DNA from: a virus | Taxonomy: Duplodnaviria; Caudoviricetes | DNA length: 64,000 bases | IMG/VR virus record: IMGVR_UViG_3300028048_003152 | Span: 4,795-68,794 of that record | Reading direction: 5' to 3' (one strand) | In this document: positions 8,717 to 64,000 of the stretch, in pieces | Layout of the letters: each line of letters opens with the position of its first letter | Position numbering within the stretch: the stretch's first letter is position 1 | Program-made: the position numbers and the translations under genes | Notes under the pieces: generated by a model | What the model was told of the DNA's origin: nothing | The model's input: the letters and a program-made list of their open reading frames with translations, nothing else | Database searches by the model: none

Positions 8717-9139
8717 TCATTCACAAACCCAGCAATCAGGTCGAACTTCTTCTTTGACCAGTCTAAGCCACTTTGCAATATGCTTTTTCCCAGCCAGATA
8801 TTCCGGATCTATACATCCACAATTAATACTCTGGCCTGTCCTCTCATGTTTTCTCCATTCGTCGGCATAATAGCAAAAATCGTCTACAGCCACTTCGTCA
8901 AATCCAGTATATGCAATATTACGGCCCAGATACATTAGACACATCAGGTCATATCGCTTATGTTCAGAGAACTCATTGATAATCATTTTAATAGTTGCGT
9001 ATGGCTCGCCGGGATCTAGTTCCAGTTCCGGATCAAAACGTGAATCTCCCAAATAAATCAAATCATCGATTTCTTCCGGTGTGATCTCAAATCTGTTTAT
9101 TCTGCGTATCGCTTTTTGACGTAATTGGTATTTACCCAT
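8717..9139 (-). CDS. DUF3775-like protein
   Basis: INEFSEHKRYDLMCLMYLGR and EYLAGKKHIAKWL resemble the DUF3775 pattern; lower GC. Confidence 0.55.
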   Translation of the reverse strand: MGKYQLRQKAIRRINRFEITPEEIDDLIYLGDSRFDPELELDPGEPYATIKMIINEFSEHKRYDLMCLMYLGRNIAYTGFDEVAVDDFCYYADEWRKHERTGQSINCGCIDPEYLAGKKHIAKWLRLVKEEVRPDCWVCE

Positions 9140-9205
9140 ATACGTTCCTCCAAAACCATGGCATATCTTCCGGGAAAGTATCGTGAAAGACCTTCACATA
9201 TGCTT

Positions 9206-10267
9206 TTACTTGTAGTATTCCGCGTACCACTCAGCAAAATGTCTGAGACCTTCTCTTATCCCAATCTCAGGTCTGAAGCCATAGTCGCGCTCCAAAGCGG
9301 CGCTGTCAGCGTAGGTCACAGGGACATCGCCGGCCTGCATTCCGACCAGTTCCCGGTGTCCCTCGAAGTCATAATCGGCAGGAAGAACTCCGGCTCTGAC
9401 CAGTTCCTCCTGGAGCGTGCTGATATAGTCCAGAAGGTTCTCCGGCTGACCGCCGCCGATGTTGTACACAGCGTAAGGCGGGATCGGCAGACCGTCCTCT
9501 CCGTTCTTCTTTTCCGGCGCACCCTGCATCACGCGGTAAACACCCTCTACGATATCGTCGATATAGGTGAAGTCCCGGCGCATATCGCCGTAGTTGAAGA
9601 TCTGGATGGTCTTCCCTGCGACCAGTTTCTGTGTGGCGCTGTAGTAGAACATATCCGGACGACCAGCGGGGCCATAGACCGTGAAGAAGCGGAGCCCCGT
9701 GGACGGGATATTGTAGAGCTTGGAATAGGCGTGTGCCAAAAGCTCATCGGATTTTTTTGTGGCCGCATAGAGGCTCACAGGGTTATCCACTTTGTCATCT
9801 GTGCTGAACGGCACCTTCTTGTTTCCGCCGTAAACGGAAGAACTGGATGCATAGACCAGGTGTTCCACCGGGTTATGACGGCAGGCTTCCAGCAGATTGT
9901 AGAAGCCGATGATATTGCTCTCGATATACACATCCGGGTGGTCGATGGAATATCGGACGCCGGCCTGTGCTGCAAGGTTCACCACGATATCGAAGTGGTA
10001 GGTAGCGAACAGGTCATCGACCAGAGCCTTGTCTCCGATGGAACCGCGGATGAACACATGCTTGACTGAAGATTCCTCCGCTGCCTTCTCCACAAGGCCG
10101 AGACGGTATTCCTTCAGAGCCGGATCGTAGTAGTCATTCATATTGTCAAGGCTTACAACTGTGCCGCCGCTCATTTCTTTCAGCAGACGGATCACGAGGT
10201 TGGCCCCGATGAATCCAGGTGAACCGGTCACCAGGATGGTTTTGTTGTCCAAATCTATGTGCTGCAT
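9206..10267 (-). CDS. NAD-dependent epimerase (UDP-glucuronate 4-epimerase-like)
   Basis: GSPGFIG Rossmann motif, NLAAQAGVRYS, YAATK catalytic motif. Confidence 0.93.
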   Translation of the reverse strand: MQHIDLDNKTILVTGSPGFIGANLVIRLLKEMSGGTVVSLDNMNDYYDPALKEYRLGLVEKAAEESSVKHVFIRGSIGDKALVDDLFATYHFDIVVNLAAQAGVRYSIDHPDVYIESNIIGFYNLLEACRHNPVEHLVYASSSSVYGGNKKVPFSTDDKVDNPVSLYAATKKSDELLAHAYSKLYNIPSTGLRFFTVYGPAGRPDMFYYSATQKLVAGKTIQIFNYGDMRRDFTYIDDIVEGVYRVMQGAPEKKNGEDGLPIPPYAVYNIGGGQPENLLDYISTLQEELVRAGVLPADYDFEGHRELVGMQAGDVPVTYADSAALERDYGFRPEIGIREGLRHFAEWYAEYYK

Positions 10268-11491
10268 TTAATCTCTCCTGAACAGGTCACGGGTATAGAC
10301 CTTCTCTTCCACATCGCCGAGCACGTCCTGATCAAAGCGGTTTGCAATGATGACGTCGCTTTCCGCCTTGAATTTATCCAGGTCGTTTACAACCTTGGAA
10401 CGGAAGAACTCGCTGCCATCATCCAGTGTCGGCTCGTATATGATGATCGGGATGCCCTTTGCCTTGATACGCTTCATGACGCCCTGGATTGCAGAGGCGC
10501 GGAAGTTGTCGCTGTTGCTCTTCATGGTCAGACGGTACACGCCGACAGTCTTCGGATTCTTCGCAATGATCTGATCAGCGATGAAGTCCTTACGAACAGT
10601 ATTGCTGTGGACAACCGCTTCAATCATGGTCTGCGGTACATCCTTATAGTTTGCTAACAGCTGCTTAGTATCTTTCGGCAGGCAGTATCCACCATAGCCG
10701 AAGGATGGGTTATTGTAGTGGCCGCCGATACGCGGGTCCATGCAAACACCGTCGATGATCATCTGTGTGTCCAGTCCTTTGGTCTGAGCATAGGTGTCGA
10801 GCTCGTTGAAATAGGAAACACGGACTGCCAGATAGGTATTGGCAAACAGCTTGATTGCCTCAGCCTCGGTCAGATGGGCAAGTAGAACGGGGATGTTCTG
10901 CGGAGCCTGTCCAGCTCTCTGCTCTTCCACTCTTGCACCTTCCAGCAGAAGGTTGGCGAACATCTGCCCCTGCTCCTTCTGGTCATCGTCGCAACCGACA
11001 ACGATGCGGCTCGGATGCAGGTTATCATACAAAGCCTTGGACTCGCGGAGGAACTCCGGGCTGAAGATAATGTTCTTGATACCGTACTTCTCGCGGACGG
11101 ATTCTGTATAGCCAACCGGGATGGTGGACTTGATAACCATGAGGACATTCGGATTGACCTTCAGAGTCCACTCGATGGCGTCCTCAACAGCGGAGGTATC
11201 AAAGAAATGGTTCACATCATCGTAGTTGGTCGGTGTAGCGATGATAACCAGATCAGCGGAACCATAGGCAGCGGCCTTATCCGTTGTCGTGTGGAGGTTG
11301 AGTGTTCTGCTACCTTCCCTGGCTTCCTTGAAGAACCTCTCAATCTCATCATCCTGAATCGGGCTGATGAACTTGTTGAGTTTCTCAGCCTTTGCTTCTG
11401 TAGTGGTAATAGCTGTAACTTCGTGTTTCTGGGAGAGCAGGACGGCAAGGCTCAGTCCAACGTATCCTACTCCTGCAACTGTGATCTTCAT
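10268..11491 (-). CDS. ugd: UDP-glucose 6-dehydrogenase
   Basis: GVGYVG, SPEFLRE, catalytic [10 protein letters not shown]. Confidence 0.95.
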
Positions 11492-11514
11492 GTACTATAT
11501 TCTCCTCTTCTCTT

Positions 11515-13008
11515 TTAATCGCGCCTGAACAGGTCACGGGTATATACTTTTTCTTCCACATCATCGAGCGCCGGGTCATAGCGGTTGGCGATGATGCATC
11601 CACACATCTTCTTAAACTTCTTCAGATCGTTGATCACAACGGAACCGAAGAAGGTGCTTCCATCTTCCAGCGTCGGCTCGTAGATCACCACGGTCGCGCC
11701 CTTGGCCTTGATCCGCTTCATGACTCCCTGGATGGAGGACTGACGGAAGTTATCGGAATTGGACTTCATGGTCAGGCGGTACACACCGACAACGACTTCC
11801 TTCTGTTCCTTCTCCCTCGCCGCCGAGTAGGATTCGCTGTTGCCGTAGGTTCCGGCGATCTCCAACACACGATCCGCAATAAAGTCCTTACGGGTACGGT
11901 TCGATTCCACGATAGCTTCGATCAGATTCTCCGGCACATCCCGGTAATTTGCCAATAACTGCTTCGTATCCTTCGGCAAACAGTATCCGCCATATCCGAA
12001 GGACGGATTGTTGTAATAGTCGCCCACACGGGGATCTAGGCACACGCCCTGGATGATCGGCGCGGTCTTCAGATGCTTCACCTCGGCATAGGTATCCAGC
12101 TCATTGAAGTAGCTGACGCGGAGTGCGAGGTAGGTGTTCACAAACAGCTTGGTCGCCTCCGCTTCCGTGGTTTCCATGAACAGCACCGGGACGGATGTCT
12201 TGATGGCTCCCTGCTGCAGGAGAGCCGCAAACTCCTCCGCCGCTTTCATGTTCGCCTCGTCACTTCCAACAATGATCCGGCTCGGATACAGGTTATCGTA
12301 AAGAGCCTTGGATTCCCGCAGGAACTCCGGGCTGAAGATGATATTGTCCATCCCAATTTTCTCGCGGACGTGGACGGTGTATCCAACCGGGATCGTGGAC
12401 TTGATCACGATGGTCGGCTTGACCTCCCGGTCAGCAGTTGCTTCTTTAATCAGCCCCAGCACTGCCTCGACCGCAGAGCAATCAAAGAAGTTGGTTTTCA
12501 CATCGTAGTTGGTCGGAGCCGCGATAATGATGAAGTCTGCTGTAGAATAAGCTGCCGCCGCATCTGTGGTAGCCGTAAGACTCAGTCCCCGCTCCTCATG
12601 CTCCGTCATGTACTTCTCAATATATTCATCCTGGATCGGACTCTTCCAGGCGTTGATTTTGTTTACCTTGGCTTCCACGATGTCCACAGCGGTCACGTCA
12701 TTGTGCTGGGACAGCAGAACTGCAAGGGAAAGGCCGACGTAGCCTGTTCCGGCCACAGCAATCTTTTTCCGCTCGACAGGCTTGATTTCTGCTTCATCAT
12801 CCACAATGACATCGGCCGGCTGGAAACCAAGAACAGCACAGAGGCTAAGAAGCTGGTCTACAGACGGGCTATAGTCCTGCGCTTCAAGTCGTGACAGAAT
12901 GGAACGGTTTATATTCGCCTTCTGGGAAAGCGCGGTCTGGGATAGTTTCAGTACCTTCCTCCGGCTGACCACGATATCCGAGAGGAGTTTTAGTGATAAA
13001 TGCTTCAT
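11515..13008 (-). CDS. ugd: XRE-HTH fused UDP-glucose 6-dehydrogenase
   Basis: N-terminal [30 protein letters not shown]; then [22 protein letters not shown]. Confidence 0.92.
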
Positions 13009-50959: not shown

Positions 50960-52921
50960 CTAATCCTTGAAATAATGAAACCCCTGGTATCCTGCGGAAG
51001 CCAAGGGAAGTCCGTCTGCCCACGCAGGATTCTTGTTCATGATGGCGCAGACCTCGTCCACGGTGATGGAACTGGCCGGCACTTCCAGAATGACTTCATC
51101 ATGGACGTGGCCGACGATGGCAAGTCCGGCCTGCTCAATGCGCCACATGGCTTCCGCCAGGAGATCCCGCGCCGTTGCCTGTGTGATGTTCTCCACGAGC
51201 TTGCCGGAGTACGTTTCACCCCGCGCCCACTTATTCGCTGCGTTAAGTCCCTCATAGGTGACCGCCATGCGCCCGAACCGGTTAGGCTGAAGCCTCGGTT
51301 TGATGTAGGCGAGCTTTCGCCCGGAGGGAAGCACGATCCAGAGTGTGTTTGCGTAGAACTGGAAACCGACCCTGCCGACCTGACGGTCGGTGTGATCCTT
51401 GATGGTATCCACAGCTGCCCGTTCTACATCCCACCAGAACTGCACGATTTTCTGATTAGCCGTCCGCCAGGATTCAATAATGTCGGGAAGCTCGGACTCT
51501 TTCAGCCCCATGTCCAAAGCACCCATCGAGATCAAAGCCCCTGCTGCCCCGCCGTATCCACAGGCGAGCTCGGCGACCTTGCCCTTCTGCCGCAGTTCCC
51601 CGTTGATGCCGTGCTTCACGACAGGCACACCGAACATCTGTGATGCCGATGCGCAATAGATATCCTCACCGCGTTTGAAAGCATCCAGCCGCCAGTTCTC
51701 CCCGGCAAGCCACGCAAGCACTCTCGCTTCGATGGCGCTGAAATCAACTATCGTAAAAATGCATCCCGGCTTGGCGATCAGCATCGTGCGGATTAGCTGT
51801 GACAGGATATCAGGTGTGTTCCCGTAGATGGATTCCACCATGTCGAAGCAACCCATCTTCACCAGGGCCCGTGCTTCATCGAGAGTGGAGATATGGTTCT
51901 GCGGAAGGTTCTGTAACTGTATCCCGCGTCCTGCCCATCGCTGTGTGCGGTTTGCGCCGCTGAACTGGAACAGCCCATGCGCCCTGCCATCTTTGCAGAT
52001 GTATCTGTCTGCCGCCTGATACTTCTTGACAGATGACTTCGCCATCTGTAATCTCAGCTTCAGCATATCCAAGGCTTCCTGATCCAGACCGTTTTTGTCG
52101 ATTTCTTTGATCATGGCGGCCACATCTTTTTTACCGAGGGAGTCGATGGCAATGCCCCGCTCCTCCAGCCAGCCCTTAAGCTGGGATACGGAATTCGGAT
52201 TCTCTAATCCGGTCAGCTCGTATGCTTTCCGGCTCATCTCCTCCGACAGCATCAGGTCGCAGGTGATAGCCTGCTCGACCAGGGTTCTGTCGATCAGGAC
52301 ACCCCGATCATTGATGCGCTGATCCATGTGGTAGAAGTCCCACTCGGAATCTTTCAGCGGAAGCGTCTCCAGCTTGTGTCGGATATCCCGCTCTGTGCGT
52401 ACATCCTGCTTGCAGTAGGATTTGAACCGCTCCCAGTCCTCCGGTGCATGCTCCGGCAGATTCCGTGTCCTGCCGCCGTTGCTCTTGGTCGGCCTGCAGG
52501 GAACGGAGAAATACTTGATCAGCCGCTCGCCGGCGTCATCCTTCTGCTCCCCGGTCTTCAGCACCTCCGCCGCCGTTTTCAGCTTCAGCGGAAGTGACAG
52601 GCTTGCCGCCCACACCATGGAGCATTGCCAGGAATCGGGGGATAACCGGGTACCGAAGAATTGACTGAGACAGGTGCGCTCGAACTGTGCATTCCAGGCA
52701 GCCTTGATGATGGTCGGGTCGTGAACAGCGTTAACAACCTCCTGCGGCAGTTCCTCGCCGCAGGCCAGATCCACCACATGGGCGTCCTCATCATCAAAAG
52801 CGTATGCGAAAAGCAGGATATGAAAGTCACCTTCAACGTAGCGATAAACCCCGCATTGGGCGAGGTCTACATCTGAGTACGTTTCCAGGTCGATGCTAAG
52901 TACACGTCTTTTCTCATTCAA
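50960..52921 (-). CDS. Phage family A DNA polymerase
   Basis: IDLETYS exonuclease, DFSAIEARV, RQKGKVAELACGYG, HVHDE; TTG start. Confidence 0.93.
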   Translation of the reverse strand: MNEKRRVLSIDLETYSDVDLAQCGVYRYVEGDFHILLFAYAFDDEDAHVVDLACGEELPQEVVNAVHDPTIIKAAWNAQFERTCLSQFFGTRLSPDSWQCSMVWAASLSLPLKLKTAAEVLKTGEQKDDAGERLIKYFSVPCRPTKSNGGRTRNLPEHAPEDWERFKSYCKQDVRTERDIRHKLETLPLKDSEWDFYHMDQRINDRGVLIDRTLVEQAITCDLMLSEEMSRKAYELTGLENPNSVSQLKGWLEERGIAIDSLGKKDVAAMIKEIDKNGLDQEALDMLKLRLQMAKSSVKKYQAADRYICKDGRAHGLFQFSGANRTQRWAGRGIQLQNLPQNHISTLDEARALVKMGCFDMVESIYGNTPDILSQLIRTMLIAKPGCIFTIVDFSAIEARVLAWLAGENWRLDAFKRGEDIYCASASQMFGVPVVKHGINGELRQKGKVAELACGYGGAAGALISMGALDMGLKESELPDIIESWRTANQKIVQFWWDVERAAVDTIKDHTDRQVGRVGFQFYANTLWIVLPSGRKLAYIKPRLQPNRFGRMAVTYEGLNAANKWARGETYSGKLVENITQATARDLLAEAMWRIEQAGLAIVGHVHDEVILEVPASSITVDEVCAIMNKNPAWADGLPLASAGYQGFHYFKD

Positions 52922-53069
52922 AAGATCACCATCCTCTCTGTGTGTTATCATCATCTGCCTGCGCCTTAAAAGAGCCTCCAAAACTGATGCTCTGGGGGCT
53001 CTTGTAAAGCGCAGACAGGAGAGAGCCGAAACCCTCTCCCATCCGCTGAAAGCGAGGAAACTCTTTGTC

Positions 53070-53654
53070 TTACTTCAGATAATCGGGAACGTCATCGCCG
53101 AACACATCGGTGCCGTCATCCTCGCCTTCGATCTCATCGAAATCGGAAGCAGCGGATGCCTTACCCGCCAGGCGCTCGCCGTCCTTCACCTTCTGGATGT
53201 TACCCAGGCCGGCCGCCACGCCCCTGTTGCCGGAAGCCGCGAAGCCGTAGAAGTTGACGGACACATTGCAGTAGTCGCCGGAGCCGCATTCCATAGGATC
53301 CAGAATCGGCTGAACCTTGCGGTCAACAATCTGCGGAGCGTCCTTCGATGTGGCGTTCAGGAACATGTGTCCTGCGTAGTTCTCGTCCTCCGGACGGTCG
53401 ATGTCGCCGTCACGCAGAGGAAGTTTCAGATTAGGCGGGATCTTGCCGCCCCACTTCTTGCCCTTGGCGTCCTCCTTGGCGGCTTCGACAGCCTTATGGA
53501 TCTTGGTCAGCGTGGCCTTGTCTTCCTTGGGGATCAGACAGGACACCGAATACTTCTCTTCGCCGCCGTTGATGCTCTTCGCCTCCCAGATGTTTGCGAA
53601 GCTGATGCGGCAGGGGATGACCACCTTGGTCGGGGATGTAGTCTTATTTGCCAT
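53070..53654 (-). CDS. DUF2815 single-stranded DNA-binding protein
   Basis: RISFANIWE, KYSVSCLIPK, PLRDGD, LGNIQKVKDGERL, acidic tail. Confidence 0.9.
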   Translation of the reverse strand: MANKTTSPTKVVIPCRISFANIWEAKSINGGEEKYSVSCLIPKEDKATLTKIHKAVEAAKEDAKGKKWGGKIPPNLKLPLRDGDIDRPEDENYAGHMFLNATSKDAPQIVDRKVQPILDPMECGSGDYCNVSVNFYGFAASGNRGVAAGLGNIQKVKDGERLAGKASAASDFDEIEGEDDGTDVFGDDVPDYLK

Positions 53655-53729
53655 ATACTTTTTTTACCTCCATAAAAATAGCGCCGGGTCTACCGGCGCG
53701 GATTACAAGATATCTCGCAGCCCTATTTG

Positions 53730-54980
53730 TCATTCCCCATCAGTCAGGACTGCGAATTCCTGATCGGGATTGCTGTTCAGGTCAACAGGCGGTCTCGGAT
53801 CGTCCTCCGGGACAAGCGTCAGCTTCCCAGGCGGCTTGGCGACATACTCGCCGAGCAGTTCTGCAAACCGCTTCTTACCCATCATTTTTTCAAACTCGGT
53901 CAGAGTGATGAGCTGCCGTTTGTAGAGGTCGGTGTAGCCGTTTGCCACCGCCGTGTCCACCACAGCCTTCGTGTCCGTGAACACACGCTTGCTCCTGCCT
54001 TCGACCACCTTGTAGCCGGGAATCGGGACACCATGGTTGATTGCCTCCGCTGATACGAATGCGAACACGGACTCTATCCATGAACTGATCCTGTTCAGCG
54101 TCGGCAGGATTCCCGCCAGCTCGTCCACCGGGATCAGCCCCGGCTGTTTGAAAACTGCTGTGTCTGTGTCGGGATTGTAGGGAGCCGTCATGTCCGTTTC
54201 CTCTGTATCGTCTGTAAACGCGCCTGCGTCGAGATCCAAAAATTCTTCTCGGCAAAGCGCCAGTGCTTCATCCGCGCAGGCGCGGCATACAGGCTTGGCT
54301 CGGCAGAACCGGCACCAGTCTCCCGGATGCTGTTCTCCCTTTCCTTCGTAGGCCATCTTCGCTATCGGTCTGATGCTCTCGCCCCATTCCTCCAGCTCTT
54401 TCCGGCTGCATTCGAAGGTGCTGATGTTCTCAAGGCGTGGCTGGATGATGCTCATACGGACAGTCTCGATCTCATAAATGTAGCCATAAGCGGCCAGGCC
54501 TCCGAGTGCGTATAGCATCATCTGGCTGTTGTGGTCTGCATCCACAAACACGCCCTGCCCCGTCTTAAAATCACAGACATGGAGCAGCCCCTTTCCCTGA
54601 TCGTCCTTCCCGACGATCAGCATGTCAGCCGTACCAAAACCGGAAGGAGCGATGTGGCTGTAATCCACCCGCTCCTCCACTAAAACCAGGGGTTCGCATC
54701 CATTACACTTCATCTCCTCGATGATGGTAATGACGAACTCCGCATACACATCGGTGATCGCGTCGATCTCCTCCGTGTAAAACTCCTCAGATTGAGGACG
54801 CTTCACTCTCTCGTGCAGATACTTCCTGACCTTATACTCGCACACCTCATGGGCAAATGTACCCTCGGCAGCGTAGACGGAGCTTTCATTGGGAAAGCCC
54901 TCTTGCAGCCGGACTGATGGCGGGCAATGAAGCCATTGCTTTGAACTGGATGCGCTTAACAGCGCGTGTACATCCGGCAT
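53730..54980 (-). CDS. DUF2800 Cas4-like exonuclease
   Basis: HALLSASS..W..CPPS, GTFAH, GTAD, DFKTG, QMMLYALG, CRFCRAK..C. Confidence 0.9.
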   Translation of the reverse strand: MPDVHALLSASSSKQWLHCPPSVRLQEGFPNESSVYAAEGTFAHEVCEYKVRKYLHERVKRPQSEEFYTEEIDAITDVYAEFVITIIEEMKCNGCEPLVLVEERVDYSHIAPSGFGTADMLIVGKDDQGKGLLHVCDFKTGQGVFVDADHNSQMMLYALGGLAAYGYIYEIETVRMSIIQPRLENISTFECSRKELEEWGESIRPIAKMAYEGKGEQHPGDWCRFCRAKPVCRACADEALALCREEFLDLDAGAFTDDTEETDMTAPYNPDTDTAVFKQPGLIPVDELAGILPTLNRISSWIESVFAFVSAEAINHGVPIPGYKVVEGRSKRVFTDTKAVVDTAVANGYTDLYKRQLITLTEFEKMMGKKRFAELLGEYVAKPPGKLTLVPEDDPRPPVDLNSNPDQEFAVLTDGE

Positions 54981-54995
54981 AGGCAGACCTCCCAA

Positions 54996-56063: not shown

Positions 56064-56109
56064 CCTCTCATATACTGTCCGCAGAGAGGCTGTTTAATAA
56101 CTATCCCCT
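56064..56109 (-). promoter_or_regulatory. 46-bp operon-head motif, copy 1
   Basis: AGGGGATAGTTATT-N5-GCCTCTC-W-GCGGACAGTATATGAG; overlaps the regulator stop codon. Confidence 0.65.
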
Positions 56110-56835
56110 GTAGTTTTTTTTCACTTTTTTTGTCGCCCCATCAAGATGATGCTTAACACCAACCTGCGTGATGCCCATAAGATCAGCGATTTCGTACTGG
56201 TTATACCCATAGTGGAAATACAGGATGAACACCTGACGCTGCTTCTCGGTCATGCTGTCCAGCGCCTCCTGCCGCGTCTCCTTGCGGATGTAAATGGTCT
56301 CCGGATCTTCGCCGATCTGATCCTCGCGCCAGGTATACTCATTCCGATAGGAGTCTTCCACAGCTTCCTCGGCATCGCCGTCCTTGTCGCCATTGTCGTC
56401 GGCGTTATAGTCCTTGGTCCCCTTGCGCCCACCCTGGCGCCGGTTCATGCTGTTCTGCTCCACCCTGTGATCCCCGACCAGCGTCAGCGCAAGCACCCAT
56501 GGCTGGGATTCCAGGAAGCCCTCCGGCAGGTCGATGTGCTCCTTGATCTCGCCGCCTTTCTCGCTCTCCTTCATCTTATCGAAGTAGTAGGTGAAGGAAA
56601 CGCAGGAGGGGATCCACACGACCGTGCGGCCGGATCCGTTGTCGTAAACCCCATAGCCGTTCGAGTAGACCAGAATGCCGTCACTCTCCGCAATCGGCTC
56701 TCCGGCTTCCTCCCGGAGCTTCCTTGAGGTCGGAGTCTTCGCTGCCCTGGTCACGGGGCCGAGGAGGTCGATCAGCTCGCCCAACGTCGTGTTCTCGGTG
56801 ATGATGTTGCCATTGATAGTTCTGTTGTTTTCCAT
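56101..56835 (-). CDS. Sigma-70 region-4 HTH regulator, paralogue 3
   Basis: MTEKQRQVFILYFHYGYNQYEIADLMGITQVGV. Confidence 0.8.
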   Translation of the reverse strand: MENNRTINGNIITENTTLGELIDLLGPVTRAAKTPTSRKLREEAGEPIAESDGILVYSNGYGVYDNGSGRTVVWIPSCVSFTYYFDKMKESEKGGEIKEHIDLPEGFLESQPWVLALTLVGDHRVEQNSMNRRQGGRKGTKDYNADDNGDKDGDAEEAVEDSYRNEYTWREDQIGEDPETIYIRKETRQEALDSMTEKQRQVFILYFHYGYNQYEIADLMGITQVGVKHHLDGATKKVKKNYRG

Positions 56836-57085: not shown

Positions 57086-57742
57086 TTACTGATTGTTGCT
57101 GTAGTACTTCTTGACTTTTTCCAGAGCTGCCCTCAGATGCTTGCTCACAACCTGCTGTGCGGCTCCGATCATCTTCCCGATCTCCTGCTGTGTGTATCCG
57201 CGCCTGTACAGGACGAGCACCCGCCGCTGTTTCTCGGTCATCAGTTCTAGAACTTCCTCCATCTCCATCCGATGGATCAGTGCATCCTCAAAGCTGTAAT
57301 GCCCGCCATTCATCCAGTTCTTATCGTCCGGGATCTCCGAATGCTTGCTGATCCAACCCCGCTCCCGGTCATCCTCGTTCTTTTGCAGCTGGTCATCGAC
57401 CGCCATCATCAGGCGCAGCGGCCAGGGCTGGTCGAGGAAGAACTCCTCCTGGAAGTAATGCTGCAGATCGTCCCCGCCATATTGGAAAGCAGTCTTCTCT
57501 CCGTTGTCCACGAGATATCTGTAGTCTCTGCACTCATCGACTCTCACACCGACTGTCCGCCGTCCCGACCTGCCGATGGCAAAGCCGCAGGGATAAACAG
57601 CAATCTGGTAATCAGAAGACTCATACACAGCGATAGGCGCGCCGGAGGATCGGATGAACTTCGCTGTGGGGATGCGGTCGTAGGCTTCTGTGGAGGGGAG
57701 CTGGGACTTCAGCTCTCGCAGCGTTATGTACTCGCCCATCAC
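57086..57742 (-). CDS. Sigma-70 region-4 HTH regulator, paralogue 2
   Basis: MTEKQRRVLVLYRRGYTQQEIGKMIGAAQQVVS. Confidence 0.8.
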   Translation of the reverse strand: MMGEYITLRELKSQLPSTEAYDRIPTAKFIRSSGAPIAVYESSDYQIAVYPCGFAIGRSGRRTVGVRVDECRDYRYLVDNGEKTAFQYGGDDLQHYFQEEFFLDQPWPLRLMMAVDDQLQKNEDDRERGWISKHSEIPDDKNWMNGGHYSFEDALIHRMEMEEVLELMTEKQRRVLVLYRRGYTQQEIGKMIGAAQQVVSKHLRAALEKVKKYYSNNQ

Positions 57743-58424: not shown

Positions 58425-58629
58425 ATATTTATTGCTGTCCGGGAAAGCGCCGGACGCGCCGCTCAGTATTTAGCCGTGTGCTGCTTCTTTTGACCGCCTC
58501 CAACCCGGTCAATCTGCCTCGCCAGCCTATTGTGTTCAAAAAGCAACGCATCCTGCTTTTTGGTTCGCAAATCCTCCACAAAAAATTTACATTCCTGCAT
58601 TTGAAATTCTGGATTTTGCCATCTGAATG

Positions 58630-58638
58630 TGTTATAAT
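58630..58638 (+). promoter_or_regulatory. Extended -10 promoter for the ABC-3C operon
   Basis: TG-T-TATAAT. Confidence 0.5.
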
Positions 58639-58689
58639 TTCCTGTGTTCGGCTGACGATGTATAGTATAAATCTGGTCAGCTTTTTTTG

Positions 58690-58724
58690 TCGGCGGCGCT
58701 CGGCAGCGTTCGGCGGCGTTCGGC
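58690..58724. repeat. Helically phased 10-bp direct repeats
   Basis: TCGGCGGCGC TCGGCAGCGT TCGGCGGCGT TCGGC. Confidence 0.8.
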
Positions 58725-58760
58725 AAAAATGCAATTTTTCAGAAGGGAGTGCGCGCCAAC

Positions 58761-59795
58761 ATGGAGTTTAAAGACTTCGCCGACATCCTGAAAACGCATA
58801 TAAACGTGGATGCCGACGATGACGAATTCTTTATGGAGATATTCGACAACTATCTGCGCGAACCCACCGACGAGGAATTGCAGAAGCTGGAGGATGCAGC
58901 TAAGAAAAAAGAAAAGAAAACGAAAAAACATGTGGAGCCGGAACCCTGGAATCCCTTTGACGGCATTGGCAAAGACGCCCAGGAGCGTTTGTTCCGCGGG
59001 CAGCGTCCGTTCCAGGTTCCCAAGCTGAAGAAAGCATATGGGAGGCGTGACGATAACCGCTTCGCCGCATATATCAATGGCCAGAGCAAGATGGTTGTGG
59101 CGCATATCGAAGAGGACTTCCTGCGCCTGATACCCGACTTCATCGATGACCAGAATATCGGGTATGCATGTCAGGACTGGCTGACACAGTTCATCCAGCG
59201 CGAGATTGACCGTGACCGTAATGCGCAGCCGGAGCCGCCAGCAAACCGCATGACGGTGCAGCAGTTCCACGCATCGTTCTATGTGGACTGGATTGAAGGC
59301 AAGATCCATTATGGCAATGAATCAATTACGATCCCGCCGGAGCTGATCCCGCCAGAAGAAATCGCGGATGAAGAAGATCTCTATGTCGGTGCCCTGCTTG
59401 ATGCATACGCACAGGCTGCAGGTGACGCGCCCGTTACGCGGGAGGATGTCCATCTACTGAAAAAGACCTACCGGGAGAACTTTTCCCAGCAGCGCATCAA
59501 CTACTATGCCGCCGTCAGAATCACCCGCATCATCCGGGAATGCTTCATCGATGACAAGGAGGAGCTTGACCGCTGGCTGAACGAATCCTCGGATTATATC
59601 AGCATTACCCGGTGTGACGATTATGACGATGGATACCAACGGCTGAAAGCGGTACTTAAGAAGGTGGTCGATTGCAGGACAACCTCCGCTGTGGATCAAT
59701 GCGGAAGGCTGATCGGACCGAAGGAACGCCAGGGCGTCTGCCATCTGCTGGTAAACAACGAAGCGTTTGTGTGGGTAAATGAAGATGATGAATAG
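58761..59795 (+). CDS. ABC-three-component/Lamassu-like effector with uncharacterised N-terminal domain
   Basis: C-terminus RINYYAAVRITR...GVCHLLVNNEAFVWV typical of ABC-3C CTDs; operon context. Confidence 0.7.
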   Translation: MEFKDFADILKTHINVDADDDEFFMEIFDNYLREPTDEELQKLEDAAKKKEKKTKKHVEPEPWNPFDGIGKDAQERLFRGQRPFQVPKLKKAYGRRDDNRFAAYINGQSKMVVAHIEEDFLRLIPDFIDDQNIGYACQDWLTQFIQREIDRDRNAQPEPPANRMTVQQFHASFYVDWIEGKIHYGNESITIPPELIPPEEIADEEDLYVGALLDAYAQAAGDAPVTREDVHLLKKTYRENFSQQRINYYAAVRITRIIRECFIDDKEELDRWLNESSDYISITRCDDYDDGYQRLKAVLKKVVDCRTTSAVDQCGRLIGPKERQGVCHLLVNNEAFVWVNEDDE

Positions 59796-60240
59796 CGCGT
59801 TTAATTCCAACACAGAAATCGCCCTGCGGATTCTTCTCTCCCTCTACGCAAGCGAGGAGAGCCTATCCGTGGACGAGCTGGTGATTCTCGATTTTGTAAC
59901 GGTATACGCTAAGGATTTCGGGATCACGACATATAATCTCCACGGCGACAACAAGAGCAAGGAATCGGAATTCGCCGCCCGCCGCCAGCAGGTAAAGGAA
60001 GCGATCCGGTTTCTGGTAACGCAGGACTATGTTGATGTCGAAGAAGCTAATAACGGATTCCTCTTCAGCATCAACGCTAACGGCACTGCCCTCTGTGATT
60101 CTATGGAGAGTACATACGCTGCGGATTACACTGCCGCCGCTATCAAAGCCGCTGAATACGCGAAAACCCACGGCCTTGAAACAGTTCTCTCCGATATCAA
60201 CCGGAAGGCTCTGGACTTCCACAAGGAAGGTAAAAAGTAA
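59779..60240 (+). CDS. ABC-three-component middle component
   Basis: FNSNTEIALRILL...LDFVTVY..DFG...NLHGD. Confidence 0.75.
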   Translation: MKMMNSAFNSNTEIALRILLSLYASEESLSVDELVILDFVTVYAKDFGITTYNLHGDNKSKESEFAARRQQVKEAIRFLVTQDYVDVEEANNGFLFSINANGTALCDSMESTYAADYTAAAIKAAEYAKTHGLETVLSDINRKALDFHKEGKK

Positions 60241-62079
60241 ATGGATTTTTTTATCAAGCAGATAACAGCACATGCTTTCCAGCCGGAACGGGAAGATTCA
60301 TCTGTGGTCTTCAGCCCTGGCGTGAATATGATCGTCGGAGCCTCCGATACAGGCAAATCGGCTGTGCTCCGCTGCATAAAATTCATGTTCGGTGGGGAGA
60401 AGCCTTTTGATCCAAAGGCGAAGGGCTTTAACAAGATCACCATGGTTCTTGGAACCATGAAAGGCGAGATTACGCTCACCCGCTATATCGGCCGCAATCG
60501 CATCAGCGTTGAAAGCGATATCCCCGGCGTGATGACCGGCGAGTTTGGTGCTGATTACGATGATAAGAACGAGAATGCGCCGCCATCCATCTCCCGTTTC
60601 TGGTTTTCCATGTACGGAATCCCAGGCGATCCGATGATCATGTGGCGCAAAGTTGGTGACCGCAAACATCTCACCATGAAAACGATCCTGCCCTCGTTTT
60701 ATCTGAACGAAGGCGATATCGATAACGCGACCTCGGTTATCCTCCCGGAGCGTGAGACGGCGCAGGTGCTATTCCTGTCTGCGCTGCTCTACTTCCTGAA
60801 CGGGGAGGAATACTCGGAACAGAAAATCTATGATACCGACGCTATTTCAAAAGCGAAACGCGCCGCTGTTGAGCAGTTTGCCAATGACCGTATCGCCGCC
60901 CTCACGAGGCAGCGCGAAGATACGGAAAAAGAACTGAAGAAATTTGACGGCATCAACGTGGAGGCGGAACTGCAGCAGTCCATTTCCCGGCTTGCCGAGA
61001 CCGAAGATTCCCTAGATGAAGCCTTCAGAAAGCAACAGGCTCTCAGTGAAGAACTGTCGCGTTATAATGATGAAGAAGCAGAGCTGACGCTTGTCCTCTC
61101 CCGCAACCGGGAACTTGCCACACAGTATCGGTCGGACATCGACCGTCTGATCTTCCTGACCGAAGGGGACAGGCTGCTGAACAATAATGAAGCCACCACC
61201 TCCTGCCCGTTCTGTCGTAGTAGGATCGATCCTATTACTCGGCCATCTTACATGGCATCCAACCGCGCCGAGCTTGCCCGCATCACACGGCAGGCCGAAG
61301 GACTGTCCGAAAGTGAACAGGACGTTGTGGAGCGGCTGAATTATATCCGTGGACAGATCACCTCCGCGGAGAAGGAGATCAACCAGCTCCAAACCATGAT
61401 CACGCGACAGCTCAGTCCTCTTGCCGATCAGCTACGCAAGGATATCGCTGTGTACAGGCACTACATTCAGACCAAGAACACCTACGATCTGTATCAGCAG
61501 GTTTCCAAGGATGTGCAGAAAACGCTGGATGCGCCGGAGTATCAGGTCAAGGCGCCGGAAACTGTGTTCAAGCCCAGGGATCATTTTCCTCTTGGCTTTG
61601 TCGCCGACATGGGCGCTATCGCTACAGAAATCCTGACGGAAGCAAACTACCGGAACCTTAATGTGGTAGAATTCCTGATCCAGCCCTTCGATCTCCAGAT
61701 CAATGGCGTAACGAAACAGGAAGAACATGGCAAAGGCTATAACTCTTTCATAAACACAGTAATGGGACTGACGATGCGCCGGTACTACATCGACCACGCG
61801 GAGTACAACCCCGGTCTGTTTATCGTCGATACGCCCTTCCACGGTTTTGACGAAGGGAAGGTCATCAAGGAAGCCAGCATGGTACATGGCCTGTTCAACT
61901 ATCTGATCGGTCAAAACGGAACCGGCCAGATCATCGTCGTGGAAAACGACAAAAGCGTCCCGGAGGATATCGACTTTGAGGCGCTTGGCGTGAATGTGAT
62001 TGATTTTCACAAGGATAATTACAAAAGCCGATTTACAAACAACCGCTACGGTTTTCTGATTGGAGTGACAGGGAAGTAA
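60241..62079 (+). CDS. Rad50/SMC-like ABC ATPase
   Basis: Walker A GASDTGKS, coiled coils, CPFC zinc hook, HGKGY signature, FIVDTP Walker B. Confidence 0.9.
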   Translation: MDFFIKQITAHAFQPEREDSSVVFSPGVNMIVGASDTGKSAVLRCIKFMFGGEKPFDPKAKGFNKITMVLGTMKGEITLTRYIGRNRISVESDIPGVMTGEFGADYDDKNENAPPSISRFWFSMYGIPGDPMIMWRKVGDRKHLTMKTILPSFYLNEGDIDNATSVILPERETAQVLFLSALLYFLNGEEYSEQKIYDTDAISKAKRAAVEQFANDRIAALTRQREDTEKELKKFDGINVEAELQQSISRLAETEDSLDEAFRKQQALSEELSRYNDEEAELTLVLSRNRELATQYRSDIDRLIFLTEGDRLLNNNEATTSCPFCRSRIDPITRPSYMASNRAELARITRQAEGLSESEQDVVERLNYIRGQITSAEKEINQLQTMITRQLSPLADQLRKDIAVYRHYIQTKNTYDLYQQVSKDVQKTLDAPEYQVKAPETVFKPRDHFPLGFVADMGAIATEILTEANYRNLNVVEFLIQPFDLQINGVTKQEEHGKGYNSFINTVMGLTMRRYYIDHAEYNPGLFIVDTPFHGFDEGKVIKEASMVHGLFNYLIGQNGTGQIIVVENDKSVPEDIDFEALGVNVIDFHKDNYKSRFTNNRYGFLIGVTGK

Positions 62080-62116: not shown

Positions 62117-62160
62117 TGTGCGATCACAGATGTGCGATCACAGATGTGCGATCACAGATG
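62117..62160. repeat. 14-bp tandem repeat x3
   Basis: TGTGCGATCACAGA exact at 62117, 62131, 62145. Confidence 0.95.
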
Positions 62161-62179: not shown

Positions 62180-62428
62180 ATGCAAATCAGTTATAAGAAG
62201 CTTTGGAAGCTTTTGATAGACAGGAATATGAACCGAAAGGATCTGCGCGCAAAGACCGGGATCAGCTCCGCCTGCATTGCAAAGATGGGAAAAGGCGAGA
62301 ACATCTCCACCGACATCATCATCCGCATCTGCTCTGCGCTGGATTGCGACATTTCGGATATCCTGGAACTTGTGGATGAGAACGATGTGCCCGTTGTACC
62401 TCTTGCGCAGCGGAAAGCGCGGACGTAG
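62180..62428 (+). CDS. Cro/C1-type HTH regulator
   Basis: ISYKKLWKLLIDRNMNRKDL...ICSALDCDISDILE. Confidence 0.88.
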   Translation: MQISYKKLWKLLIDRNMNRKDLRAKTGISSACIAKMGKGENISTDIIIRICSALDCDISDILELVDENDVPVVPLAQRKART

Positions 62429-62544: not shown

Positions 62545-63150
62545 TTGGGGAAGGAGCAGCATATGCCGTTCAGAATTGATACACAGACAAAGGGAATCTA
62601 TATTGTTTCCGAGGACTCCATCTCCCACCACTTCTTCAGCATCGACGAGACCTCTCCCGGCCTGCTCGTGAAGAAGCATTATACAGAGATCGAGCGGGCG
62701 CTGTATTCCGCCTGGTTCCTCCGGGAAGGGAAATGCTACGAGTCGATAGCTGCATACATGCATGACGAAAAAGACCTGGAAGACGCGCCGCATCTGGAGA
62801 AGGTAGTCGCGGCGATAGAAAAACAGGTGGACTTATTCACAGAGGGTGAATACGGGAAGTATGTGGCTGGCCATGAGGCGCAGGACTGGAAATTGATAGG
62901 TGACAACCGCTACTGGCGGGAAGTCCAGGATGTATGGGTGGAGATCGATGCGCTGAAGGAAGGCCGATATTACGAAAACGAGATACACCACCATCCCGGC
63001 ATCCCCAGGATTGAGACTGTGGGGAAGCGGCTGGTGGATAAGATCATGGATCTGGTCTGGCGCATGGACAATGACGCGCCGGGCAAGCAGGAAGAATTGG
63101 TAGAGGCGTTCTACCGGGTGAATGAGGATAAGGCAGATATGGAGAAATGA
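62545..63150 (+). CDS. Hypothetical protein
   Basis: Long ORF with GGAG RBS; likely start MPFRID. Confidence 0.65.
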   Translation: MGKEQHMPFRIDTQTKGIYIVSEDSISHHFFSIDETSPGLLVKKHYTEIERALYSAWFLREGKCYESIAAYMHDEKDLEDAPHLEKVVAAIEKQVDLFTEGEYGKYVAGHEAQDWKLIGDNRYWREVQDVWVEIDALKEGRYYENEIHHHPGIPRIETVGKRLVDKIMDLVWRMDNDAPGKQEELVEAFYRVNEDKADMEK

Positions 63151-63211: not shown

Positions 63212-64000
63212 CTACTCCGCCTTTATCACTCCAAACCGAATAAACATCACATAGAGATAAGATGCCGCACCAGGGACTTTCAGCTTTTTCGGTCCGGATA
63301 CAAATCCACTTCTCTCCTGTTCCTCCAGTGCGTTCTTCAGCGCCAGTTCAACTGTACTCCTGCTTATGCTCTTTTCGTGGCCGGCTATAATCATCTCGTT
63401 CCCGAAACCAGGAATCGATTCACCCTCGTAATGTCGTCCGCTGCTACTGCTCTCTTCGCTCACGGTATATTTGAATTTTGTCGCACCTGTGTGATCCTTG
63501 CCGCGACCTGCTGTGGCGAAGGGATAGTGCTGGAATGCAATCACTGTCTTCCACAGCGCCAACGGCTGCTCATCTGTACCGACGCTCTTCCAAAGTTCCT
63601 CACAAGCCTTCTTCCTTGCCCGGTATCTCGCTCCCTGTTCAGAATAAAGCGTTGGATCGGGCAGGTTGTATGCGCCTTTTTTATAGGGGAGATAAGAATA
63701 GACGGAGGCTTTGCCTAGCCCCGTTGTCTGCATGGTTTCCGTTATTGTGTGTCCCTGGCTTTCAAGCTCCTGAACCTGGCGTGAGGTTGTAGTTGAATAT
63801 ATGCCGGCTGTAATCAACAGCTTTCTGACACGGAGAATCGTCGTCTCCATCTCCTCTGCCACGGAGACAATGGTTGGCGCATCTTCCGGACGATCAATCC
63901 GATCATCGTAAGGAACTTCAAAGAGCGCCGCTGCGGTTGCAATCAAATCCGCTATTTCCGCTTCCCGGTCATATCCCGGTTTCTTCTTTGGTCTTGCCAT
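63212..64000 (-). CDS. Hypothetical protein with N-terminal HTH-like region
   Basis: SVAEEMETTILRVRKLLITAG and MQTTGLGKASVYSYLPY helical motifs. Confidence 0.7.
   Translation of the reverse strand: MARPKKKPGYDREAEIADLIATAAALFEVPYDDRIDRPEDAPTIVSVAEEMETTILRVRKLLITAGIYSTTTSRQVQELESQGHTITETMQTTGLGKASVYSYLPYKKGAYNLPDPTLYSEQGARYRARKKACEELWKSVGTDEQPLALWKTVIAFQHYPFATAGRGKDHTGATKFKYTVSEESSSSGRHYEGESIPGFGNEMIIAGHEKSISRSTVELALKNALEEQERSGFVSGPKKLKVPGAASYLYVMFIRFGVIKAE

What the first reader, a model, noticed from the sequence alone, without database searches (positions are those of the whole stretch)
58761..62079. Lamassu/ABC-3C-like operon in the repressor slot, with an effector lacking a recognisable toxic domain
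Established: ABC-three-component (Lamassu/DdmABC-type) systems pair an effector-CTD, a middle component and a Rad50/SMC-like ATPase for anti-phage/plasmid defence. Seen: all three genes are tightly coupled and intact, and divergent from the early operon where cI normally sits. No cI is adjacent, and no nuclease, TIR, SIR2 or protease motif is evident by eye in the helical N-terminal ~150 aa. Inference: the DNA-sensing ATPase may gate a DNA-binding regulator, i.e. a defence chassis repurposed as a prophage induction/immunity switch, or the effector is of a new class.
Basis: partly seen in the sequence, partly recalled or inferred. Interest (0 to 1): 0.78.

Follow-up and report, generated by a model that had tools for sequence, protein, structure and literature searches.

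The report
Prophage Lamassu with unknown portable head domain

Summary
Three coupled, intact + strand genes at 58761-62079 are LmuA (CTD6), LmuC (MC2) and LmuB, each matched full-length by PADLOC Lamassu profiles. They diverge from a minus-strand phage early/replication operon.

The first 155 aa of LmuA have no match in Pfam, NCBIfam, PDB sequences, Foldseek or VIA (best Z 3.6), although the model is very confident (pLDDT 95).

Two points change the reading:
- "No cI adjacent" is wrong. A Cro/C1-type HTH_26 gene (62180-62428) lies 100 bp after lmuB. It follows the cargo in nearly all related loci and occurs in at least 538 viral contigs.
- The N-terminal domain (NTD) is a portable head. In the slot between the early operon and this HTH, related prophages carry it on CTD6 Lamassu, CTD11/MC7/DUF2326 ABC-3C, partners of an SF1 helicase (PDC-S53) and an AAA_13 ATPase (PDC-S06), and NACHT-SNaCT14.

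The NTD is acidic, has no membrane segment, has no invariant polar residue across chassis, and is under purifying selection.

Best reading: ordinary lysogeny-side defence cargo in a prophage hotspot, whose output domain is uncharacterised and probably non-enzymatic. The "repurposed immunity switch" idea is unsupported but not excluded. The scan had not seen this sequence before.

The parts
58425..58760 (.). Divergent regulatory region between the minus-strand early operon and lmuA. It contains a TGnTATAAT-like box at 58630-58638 (+), GC-rich 9-nt tandem units at 58693-58726, and the RBS GAAGGGAG at 58742-58749.
   Evidence: Read from the sequence. The consensus scan found no full -35/-10 pair on the + strand here, so the promoter assignment is inference by eye.
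58761..59795 (+). lmuA, 344 aa: N-terminal helical head domain plus linker and beta-hairpin plus CTD6.
   Evidence: PADLOC LmuA PDLC03857 3e-88 over the full length. Pfam CTD6 2e-28. AF2 model m3de600fec985.
58761..59225 (+). NTD (aa 1-155): eight-helix acidic domain with no known family or fold. It includes a Lys-rich helix insertion (aa 37-54) that more distant homologues lack.
   Evidence: AF2 on the domain alone gives pLDDT 95 and pTM 0.86. Foldseek PDB finds nothing at E<=0.001. VIA-wide best Z is 3.6. BFVD returns only three uncharacterised gut Siphoviridae proteins. phmmer against 1.84 billion representatives gives 18 hits.
59373..59792 (+). CTD6, the tethering and oligomerisation domain of LmuA.
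   Evidence: Pfam CTD6 aa 205-338. VIA Z 11.6 (rmsd 2.5, 117 aligned) to the Salmonella LmuA CTD 9hqx_A and Z 11.4 to 9nxx_A.
59779..60240 (+). lmuC, 153 aa, middle component MC2.
   Evidence: Pfam MC2 6e-37. PADLOC LmuC 7e-47.
60241..62079 (+). lmuB, 612 aa: short SMC/Rad50-like ABC ATPase with Walker A and a CPFC zinc hook.
   Evidence: PADLOC LmuB PDLC03867 4e-190. Motifs and conservation.
62117..62158 (+). Three perfect 14-bp tandem copies of TGTGCGATCACAGA (imperfect palindrome), 22 bp upstream of the HTH start. Candidate operator array.
   Evidence: the three exact copies are the only ones in the window. Any function is inference.
62180..62428 (+). Cro/C1-type HTH_26 gene, 82 aa, VanU-like. 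It is a conserved backbone gene that closes the cargo slot.
   Evidence: Pfam HTH_26 4.6e-19. PDB 3tyr 2e-26. It follows lmuB in most related loci and follows NTD-NACHT in L072 and L074. At least 538 viral contigs carry a relative.

Best explanation
This is a complete short (type II) Lamassu system of the CTD6/MC2 subfamily. A temperate phage of gut Clostridia carries it as lysogeny-side cargo, in a conserved slot between the divergent early-operon control region and a conserved small Cro/C1 (VanU-like) HTH gene.

By analogy with the solved Cap4-CTD7-MC3 systems, an LmuB dimer plus LmuC hold one LmuA by its C-terminal domain. Binding of DNA ends or aberrant DNA, together with ATP, releases LmuA. 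The CTD then drives homo-oligomerisation, which brings the N-terminal domains together.

Here the N-terminal domain is not an enzyme of any known class. It is a ~130-155 aa acidic, soluble, all-helical 'head' that is portable between NTPase sensors and is the most likely output module. I infer that it acts non-catalytically, by binding or sequestering a protein partner once it is clustered.

Shown: gene identities and integrity, the CTD fold match, the portability of the NTD, and the slot architecture. Inferred: the release/oligomerisation mechanism for CTD6, the output role of the NTD and how it acts, and co-transcription with the HTH.
For: - Lamassu identity and integrity.
- The CTD6 fold matches the LmuA CTD of solved complexes: Z 11.6 and 11.4.
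- The release-and-tetramerise mechanism is published for CTD7 systems (10.1101/2025.03.14.643221; PMC12663957).
- The NTD is a real, selected domain: pLDDT 95 and dN/dS about 0.10 against 0.07 for the CTD.
- The NTD sits at the extreme N-terminus, the effector position. It is fused to CTD6, CTD11 (+MC7 +DUF2326 ATPase) or NACHT-SNaCT14, and it also heads the first-gene proteins encoded beside a PDC-S53 helicase or a PDC-S06 AAA_13 ATPase.
- Chassis types are intermixed on the NTD tree.
- No invariant polar residue is shared across chassis, the domain is acidic, and it has no TM segment.
- Hotspot behaviour: of 75 informative HTH-centred viral loci, 29 have no + strand cargo and 46 carry varied cargo. 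More defence genes follow the HTH.
- Nearly all 60 LmuA-centred loci share the same synteny with phage genes homologous to window 50960-54995.
- Lamassu in prophage hotspots is documented (10.1101/2022.05.11.491447).
Against: - No biochemical activity can be assigned to the NTD.
- A PADLOC HamA1 profile carries an NTD-like N-terminal segment ahead of its DUF1837 nuclease region. This hints that the NTD can accompany a true effector rather than be one.
- The NTD is almost confined to one phage lineage: 18 representatives among 1.84 billion proteins. That is unusual for a generic toxin.
- Haudiquet et al. describe a short-Lamassu clade that 'seemingly lost the effector domain'. This system may belong there, and such systems might work without a toxic effector.
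- In this window a 100-bp spacer with its own repeat array separates lmuB from the HTH, so co-transcription is not shown.
Confidence: 0.6

Rival explanations
1. The NTD is not the effector. It is an accessory handle that either recruits an unlinked effector or is the docking site for a phage-made inhibitor, which silences whatever sensor sits in the slot during the phage's own lytic growth. On this view the Lamassu is effectorless and acts, if at all, through LmuB/LmuC binding to DNA ends.
For: - No residue suited to catalysis is conserved across chassis.
- The NTD-like segment in the HamA1 profile lies ahead of a nuclease domain.
- The NTD is restricted to one phage lineage and one slot.
- A published 'Clade O' Lamassu lacks an effector domain.
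- bNACHT clade 14 (SNaCT) proteins also lack recognised effectors.
Against: - There is no second NTD copy anywhere in the 68.8-kb contig.
- No non-cargo gene family in the flanks co-occurs with the NTD across chassis.
- In NTD-CTD6 and NTD-NACHT-SNaCT14 proteins nothing else could serve as output.
Confidence: 0.2
2. The sensor chassis gates a phage-specific regulatory output. On sensing foreign or damaged DNA, the clustered NTD acts on the prophage's own circuit (the VanU-like HTH or the sigma-r4 early regulators) to trigger or block induction, so the operon is part of the immunity switch.
For: - The position is conserved, directly beside the early control region and upstream of a Cro/C1 HTH, in dozens of phages.
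- The NTD is found almost only in this phage lineage.
- There is no toxic motif.
Against: - 29 of 75 related loci have no + strand cargo in the slot yet keep the HTH, so the phage family does not need this cargo.
- The NTD is acidic and shows no DNA-binding fold.
- An NTD-CTD6 lmuACB also sits on E. faecium megaplasmids with no phage backbone or HTH, although its LmuB is C-terminally truncated.
- The candidate HTH operator is absent from the early control region.
Confidence: 0.1
3. The operon is a decaying or inert passenger.
For: None in this window. One plasmid relative has a truncated LmuB, and a few related loci have split lmuB or lmuC (L005, L011).
Against: All three frames are intact, family-conserved residues are kept or conservatively substituted, and purifying selection acts on all parts of lmuA in relatives.
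Confidence: 0.03

Closest known systems
Short/type II Lamassu Cap4-CTD7-MC3 (V. cholerae DdmABC; Salmonella enterica LmuACB, PDB 9hqx/9hr5; 9nxx)
   Same: Gene order lmuA-lmuC-lmuB. A ~600-aa LmuB. The LmuA C-terminal domain has the same fold (Z 11.6 and 11.4). Presumably the same sequester, release and oligomerise logic applies.
   Different: CTD6/MC2 replace CTD7/MC3. LmuB has a CxxC zinc hook. The N-terminal Cap4 nuclease is replaced by an unrelated acidic helical domain with no catalytic signature.
Short Lamassu 'Clade O' of Haudiquet et al. [quoted passage not shown]
   Same: A short Lamassu with intact LmuB and LmuC and no recognisable effector. A PADLOC LmuA profile (PDLC03857) already covers this LmuA end to end.
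   Different: I could not check clade membership because the supplement is not held. Here LmuA is not truncated: it has a well-folded, selected 150-aa N-terminal domain.
ABC-3C CTD11/MC7/DUF2326 systems (PADLOC candidate PDC-M68) and bNACHT clade 14 NACHT-SNaCT proteins (Kibby et al., 10.1101/2022.07.19.500537)
   Same: In related prophages these chassis sit in the same slot and carry the same N-terminal domain.
   Different: The sensors are different NTPases. They share only the head domain, the slot and the trailing HTH.
Prophage lysogeny-side defence cargo (lambda cI-rexAB operon, from textbook knowledge; P2/P4 hotspots, Rousset 2022 as cited; PMC13586616)
   Same: Variable defence cargo sits at a fixed position of a temperate phage, oriented with a repressor-type gene and away from the lytic operon.
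   Different: The cargo precedes the HTH gene. Most cargo variants share one N-terminal domain, which to my knowledge has not been described for P2/P4 hotspots.
VanU_G, the Xre-type autorepressor of the vanG operon (PMC4405338). PDB 3tyr/3tys is VanU_G only from my memory; the tool gives just 'transcriptional regulator'.
   Same: The downstream HTH matches 3tyr at 2e-26. VanU_G binds 14-bp imperfect inverted repeats spanning its promoter. The window has three 14-bp imperfect-palindrome repeats just upstream of the HTH.
   Different: The setting is a phage backbone gene, not a resistance operon. Binding and regulatory targets are untested.

Membership tests
Lamassu type II / short (ABC-3C) | LmuB: SMC/Rad50-like ABC ATPase with Walker A, coiled coil and C-terminal half-site | tested here: met
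   PADLOC LmuB PDLC03867 4e-190 over 1-610. GASDTGKS Walker A, CPFC zinc hook and the conserved D-T-P are present.
Lamassu type II / short (ABC-3C) | LmuC middle component encoded between lmuA and lmuB | tested here: met
   Pfam MC2 6e-37 and PADLOC LmuC 7e-47. Gene order and coupling.
Lamassu type II / short (ABC-3C) | LmuA C-terminal tethering/oligomerisation domain (CTD family) | tested here: met
   Pfam CTD6 2e-28. VIA Z 11.6, rmsd 2.5, 117 aa aligned to the 9hqx_A CTD.
Lamassu type II / short (ABC-3C) | LmuA N-terminal domain of a recognised effector class (Cap4, Mrr, PDDEXK, HNH, Sir2, lipase, protease, FMO, SMEK...) | tested here: not met
   No Pfam or NCBIfam family matches aa 1-200. 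PDB sequence and profile searches are empty. Fold searches give nothing above Z 3.6, which on its own is inconclusive.
Lamassu type II / short (ABC-3C) | Protection against phage or plasmid by abortive infection, dependent on the ATPase | not testable with these tools
   Needs a challenge assay.
Prophage cI-type immunity switch built on LmuA | DNA-binding (HTH) domain in the LmuA N-terminus | tested here: inconclusive
   No HTH family in Pfam. hhalign against HTH_26 gives probability 0.1. Lambda cI NTD appears only at Foldseek E 3.3. Net charge is -8.
Prophage cI-type immunity switch built on LmuA | No separate repressor-type gene next to the operon | tested here: not met
   An HTH_26 gene lies at 62180-62428 and is conserved across relatives.
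Effector-associated (EAD/Death-like) adaptor domains | The same domain also occurs on a separately encoded enzymatic effector in the neighbourhood | tested here: not met
   No second NTD copy in the 68.8-kb contig at E<=10. No enzymatic fusion turned up among relatives. No co-occurring flank family.
Xre/Cro-C1 HTH_26 (VanU-like), for the gene at 62180-62428 | HTH_26 domain spanning the protein | tested here: met
   Pfam HTH_26 4.6e-19, aa 7-67 of the 63-position model. PDB 3tyr 2e-26.
Xre/Cro-C1 HTH_26 (VanU-like), for the gene at 62180-62428 | Acts as prophage maintenance repressor | not testable with these tools
   Only position and orientation speak for it. The candidate operator (62117-62158) does not recur at the early control region.

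The most novel reading that the evidence does not exclude
The 130-155 aa acidic helical head is a new class of non-enzymatic, oligomerisation-triggered output domain. It serves as a universal plug for at least five unrelated NTPase sensors (LmuB, DUF2326 ABC ATPase, SF1 helicase PDC-S53, AAA_13 PDC-S06, NACHT) within a single cargo slot of a widespread family of Bacillota temperate phages. Its target may be phage-lineage-specific, for example the phage's own regulatory or replication proteins, so that sensing an invader is converted into a phage-level decision rather than generic cell killing.
Probability: 0.3. Interest if true: 0.85.

Novelty: new variant of a known kind. Interest (0 to 1): 0.62.

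Why it matters
Lamassu activation is understood structurally only for nuclease effectors. How the same release-and-oligomerise switch drives a non-enzymatic output is an open question.

This locus offers a confidently folded domain with no PDB match above noise. Nature has bolted it onto five different sensor chassis, which makes it a natural domain-swap series for finding its target.

The work also defines a two-sided defence hotspot, bounded by a conserved VanU-like HTH, in a large family of gut and environmental Bacillota prophages (at least 538 viral contigs). That is useful for mining further cargo.

Finally, it corrects the idea that this phage lacks a repressor-type gene at the switch.

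Tried and rejected
- ESM Atlas on aa 1-155 gave no usable hit.
- Megablast of the operon against GenBank phages found no match. tblastn found only Javan630, where the genes are annotated as hypothetical.
- I noticed by eye that NTD 'ERLFRGQRP...' resembles the helix 3 to helix 4 stretch of the neighbouring HTH_26. I rejected the idea: hhalign gives probability 0.1 and there is no repressor fold hit.
- A search for the TGTG-N4-CACA candidate operator in the window's early region and in 75 related switch regions found no enrichment.
- A search for a phage gene family that co-occurs with the NTD across chassis found none within +/-7 kb.
- An HMM of the upstream sigma-r4-type regulators found them next to only about half of the NTD genes, so this was left inconclusive.
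- Krishnan et al. 2020 (ABC-3C classification) could not be read, and the Haudiquet supplement is not held. What those authors call the CTD6-associated N-terminal domain, and the Clade O membership, therefore remain unchecked.
- A careful ML tree did not finish, so a quick IQ-TREE tree was used.
Full report
**What is at the coordinates**

Three + strand ORFs fill 58761-62079: 58761-59795 (344 aa), 59779-60240 (153 aa) and 60241-62079 (612 aa). The first two overlap by 17 nt and the last two abut.

- Pfam assigns CTD6 of ABC-3C systems to aa 205-338 of the first protein (2e-28). It assigns MC2 to the second (6e-37) and AAA_23/AAA_15/SMC_N to the third.
- PADLOC assigns LmuA PDLC03857 (3e-88, aligned over 1-342), LmuC PDLC03875 (7e-47) and LmuB PDLC03867 (4e-190, full length).
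- NCBIfam gives only weak Rad50/SMC similarity for LmuB.
- LmuB has Walker A GASDTGKS, a CPFC zinc hook and the family's D-T-P Walker-B-like motif. In an alignment of 50 relatives it keeps every position that is at least 95% conserved, or a conservative hydrophobic substitute.
- ATG 58761 is the likely start, because the alternative GTG at 58749 overlaps the Shine-Dalgarno GAAGGGAG.

**Surroundings**

The window is the last 64 kb of a 68,794-bp contig with no terminal repeats, and it ends at the contig end.

Upstream on the minus strand lie two Sigma70_r4-containing regulators (56101-56835, 57086-57742), a DUF7768/deoxyribosyltransferase-like gene, and a DUF2800 PD-(D/E)XK exonuclease (53730-54995). 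Together these form a phage early/replication module. This agrees with earlier scan notes on this window.

It encodes an 82-aa protein with a full Cro/C1-type HTH_26 domain (4.6e-19; found by tblastn with neighbours of related loci). Just upstream of it lie three perfect 14-bp tandem copies of TGTGCGATCACAGA (62117-62158). This motif occurs nowhere else in the window.

**The LmuA protein**

The close family is small, with 24 clusters at 90% identity.

AlphaFold2 with that alignment gives:
- a confident all-helical N-terminal domain (aa 1-153, block pLDDT mostly 86-96, with one dip to 67 at aa 121-130);
- a disordered linker (154-173);
- a small beta-hairpin;
- the CTD.

VIA-align against 48,161 PDB representatives matches the CTD to the C-terminal domain of solved LmuA proteins: 9hqx_A at Z 11.6, rmsd 2.5, 117 aa aligned, and 9nxx_A at Z 11.4. 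The best N-terminal match is Z 3.9 to an acyl carrier protein, which is noise.

Folded on its own with a broader alignment, the NTD reaches pLDDT 95 and pTM 0.86. Even so:
- Foldseek finds nothing in the PDB at E<=0.001.
- VIA-wide peaks at Z 3.6.
- PDB sequence and profile searches are empty.
- In BFVD only three uncharacterised gut Siphoviridae proteins match (probability 1.0, TMq 0.62-0.66). These are evidently family members.

**The NTD is a portable head domain**

phmmer of aa 1-195 against 1.84 billion representative proteins found 18 hits. Most are CTD6 proteins. One (P0034, 784 aa) is NTD + NACHT + SNaCT14, and others carry unrelated C-termini. The homology runs from residue 1 in every architecture.

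I then collected 60 LmuA-centred loci, NTD-centred loci and 80 loci centred on the downstream HTH. Using my own ORF calls and HMMs, nearly every lmuACB of this subfamily sits in the same synteny. It is on the + strand, divergent from minus-strand homologues of window genes 50960-52981, 53070-53654 and 53730-54995, or of 47492/49112. In most loci a small HTH gene follows it, often overlapping the lmuB stop by 4 nt.

The NTD-NACHT-SNaCT14 genes of Hespellia (L072) and Robinsoniella (L074) occupy the same slot of related prophages. There, the polymerase-like gene is 52% identical to the window's. The same HTH follows them (60-63% identical), and in L072 a type I R-M system comes next.

**The slot seen from the HTH side**

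The HTH is present in at least 538 IMG/VR contigs. Of the 80 best loci, 75 were informative (redundancy was not removed):

| Slot content | Loci |
|---|---|
| No + strand cargo of 100 aa or more between the minus-strand genes and the HTH | 29 |
| CTD6 Lamassu (two with a split or truncated head) | 14 |
| NTD-CTD11 + MC7 + DUF2326 ABC ATPase (PADLOC candidate PDC-M68), NTD detected by my HMM | 11 |
| Further CTD11/DUF2326 loci with no NTD by my HMM; for two of them (L144, and its look-alike L146 by extension) the PADLOC LmuA profile detects the head in L144 | 3 |
| NTD protein followed by a 910-920 aa SF1 helicase (PDC-S53) | 3 |
| 190-240 aa NTD protein + 221-aa protein + AAA_13 ATPase (PDC-S06) | 3 (plus 2 without a detectable head) |
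| NTD-NACHT | 1 (plus 2 NACHT with another N-terminus) |
| Other cargo, including one lone 300-aa protein (L151) whose head only the PADLOC LmuA profile detects | 7 |

These assignments rest.

Downstream of the HTH lies more defence cargo, for example an NgoFVII-like REase plus a Z1 helicase. On a quick ML tree of the NTD, chassis types are intermixed. NACHT heads fall in two separate places, and a helicase-partner head is sister to an AAA_13-partner head at 99% SH-aLRT. Head and chassis have therefore been recombined repeatedly.

**Properties of the NTD**

- It is acidic: net charge -8 here, median -9 in CTD6 proteins, and -3.5 to -7 in the other chassis.
- It has no hydrophobic stretch compatible with a membrane helix.
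- Within the CTD6 and NACHT groups an NPF...D...R...G motif is invariant. Across all chassis, only F3, G80 and F101 stay at 90% or more, so no polar residue is conserved that could be catalytic.
- It is under purifying selection: NG86 dN/dS about 0.10, against 0.07 for the CTD. dS is about 1.4, so these values are rough.
- No second copy exists in the contig.
- No non-cargo gene family in the flanks tracks its presence.
- A word-limited architecture census returned CTD6, CTD11 and NACHT±SNaCT14, plus a few proteins with no Pfam domain and one probably spurious MFS_1 hit. No enzymatic effector fusion appeared.
- One caveat: the PADLOC HamA1 profile PDLC00151 (DUF1837) aligns its positions ~4-145 to several NTDs at 1e-8 to 3e-4. 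Some Hachiman HamA proteins may therefore carry this head in front of a nuclease domain.

**Mechanism**

For Cap4-CTD7-MC3 Lamassu, cryo-EM work shows four things. LmuB2-LmuC sequester a monomeric LmuA through its CTD. DNA ends are sensed. LmuA is liberated and forms a CTD-driven tetramer. Proximity of the N-terminal domains then activates them.

Because CTD6 shares the CTD fold and LmuB and LmuC are intact, I infer the same switch here, with the helical head as the clustered output. What the clustered head does is unknown. The absence of conserved polar residues and the acidic surface point to protein binding or sequestration, not catalysis or DNA binding.

The 'effector of a new class' alternative is supported. 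The 'repressor slot / repurposed switch' alternative rests on a premise that fails, because a Cro/C1 HTH gene is adjacent. It also fits poorly with the hotspot behaviour of the slot: many relatives have no + strand cargo there, and the rest carry varied cargo.

The HTH matches PDB 3tyr at 2e-26. From memory, that entry is VanU_G, an Xre autorepressor that binds 14-bp imperfect inverted repeats (PMC4405338). Whether the HTH is the prophage's maintenance repressor cannot be told. Its candidate operator is not found at the early control region, and no shared operator emerged in relatives.

An NTD-CTD6 lmuACB also occurs on IS-rich E. faecium megaplasmids without the phage backbone or the HTH. Its LmuB lacks the last ~30 aa. 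This weakly favours an autonomous module.

**Novelty**

The system is a catalogued kind. PADLOC profiles cover all three proteins, and Pfam has CTD6 and MC2. Haudiquet et al. note a short-Lamassu clade that 'seemingly lost the effector domain', which may include it.

What I did not find described in the accessible literature:
- that the N-terminal region is a confidently folded domain with no PDB match above noise;
- that it is shared by five NTPase chassis;
- that all of these sit in one prophage slot closed by a conserved VanU-like HTH.

The scan's own index holds no look-alike.

Noticed in passing
window 62117-62158: Three perfect 14-bp tandem copies of TGTGCGATCACAGA (imperfect palindrome TGTG-CGAT-CACA) lie 22 bp upstream of the HTH_26 start codon. 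The motif is unique in the window and is not seen in the switch regions of 75 related loci.
   Followed up: partly
window 58693-58726: GC-rich 9-nt tandem units (GCGTTCGGC-like, about four copies) sit in the lmuA leader, between a TGnTATAAT-like box (58630-58638) and the RBS. Seen by eye only.
   Followed up: no
L094:4931-6799 (also L084, L096, L098, L099, L102, L104, L106, L130, L138): In relatives without + strand cargo, a 617-629 aa minus-strand gene abuts the HTH. It gives a weak PADLOC capP (ImmA/IrrE-like peptidase) match at 6e-7. This may be an alternative cargo or an anti-repressor-type partner of the HTH.
   Followed up: partly
L094:7191-10258; L072:10631-13906: A second variable cargo zone lies directly downstream of the HTH: an NgoFVII-like REase plus a Z1-domain helicase in L094, and SIMPL plus type I R-M (HsdM/HsdS) in L072.
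   Followed up: partly
L156 (AP026618.1, E. faecium pAA96_1) 9001-12219: An NTD-CTD6 lmuA, lmuC and lmuB sit on a conjugative megaplasmid, flanked by IS30/IS256 transposases, with no phage backbone and no trailing HTH. LmuB is 586 aa and lacks the last ~30 residues.
   Followed up: partly
L012 (Methanolobus MAG), L007 (Proteiniphilum MAG): Loci identical or nearly identical to Bacillota ones sit on short contigs binned to an archaeon and a Bacteroidota. This is probably binning contamination, not cross-domain transfer.
   Followed up: no
window 62545-63150 (+) and 63212-64000 (-): Two ORFs (201 aa and 262 aa) lie after the HTH, up to the contig end. Neither has a Pfam or PHROG match. By position they fall in the second cargo zone.
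   Followed up: no
window 58866-58922 (LmuA aa 36-54): A Lys-rich helix (…AAKKKEKKTKKH…) is inserted in the NTD of the window's subclade only. It is absent from homologues at 47% identity or less.
   Followed up: no
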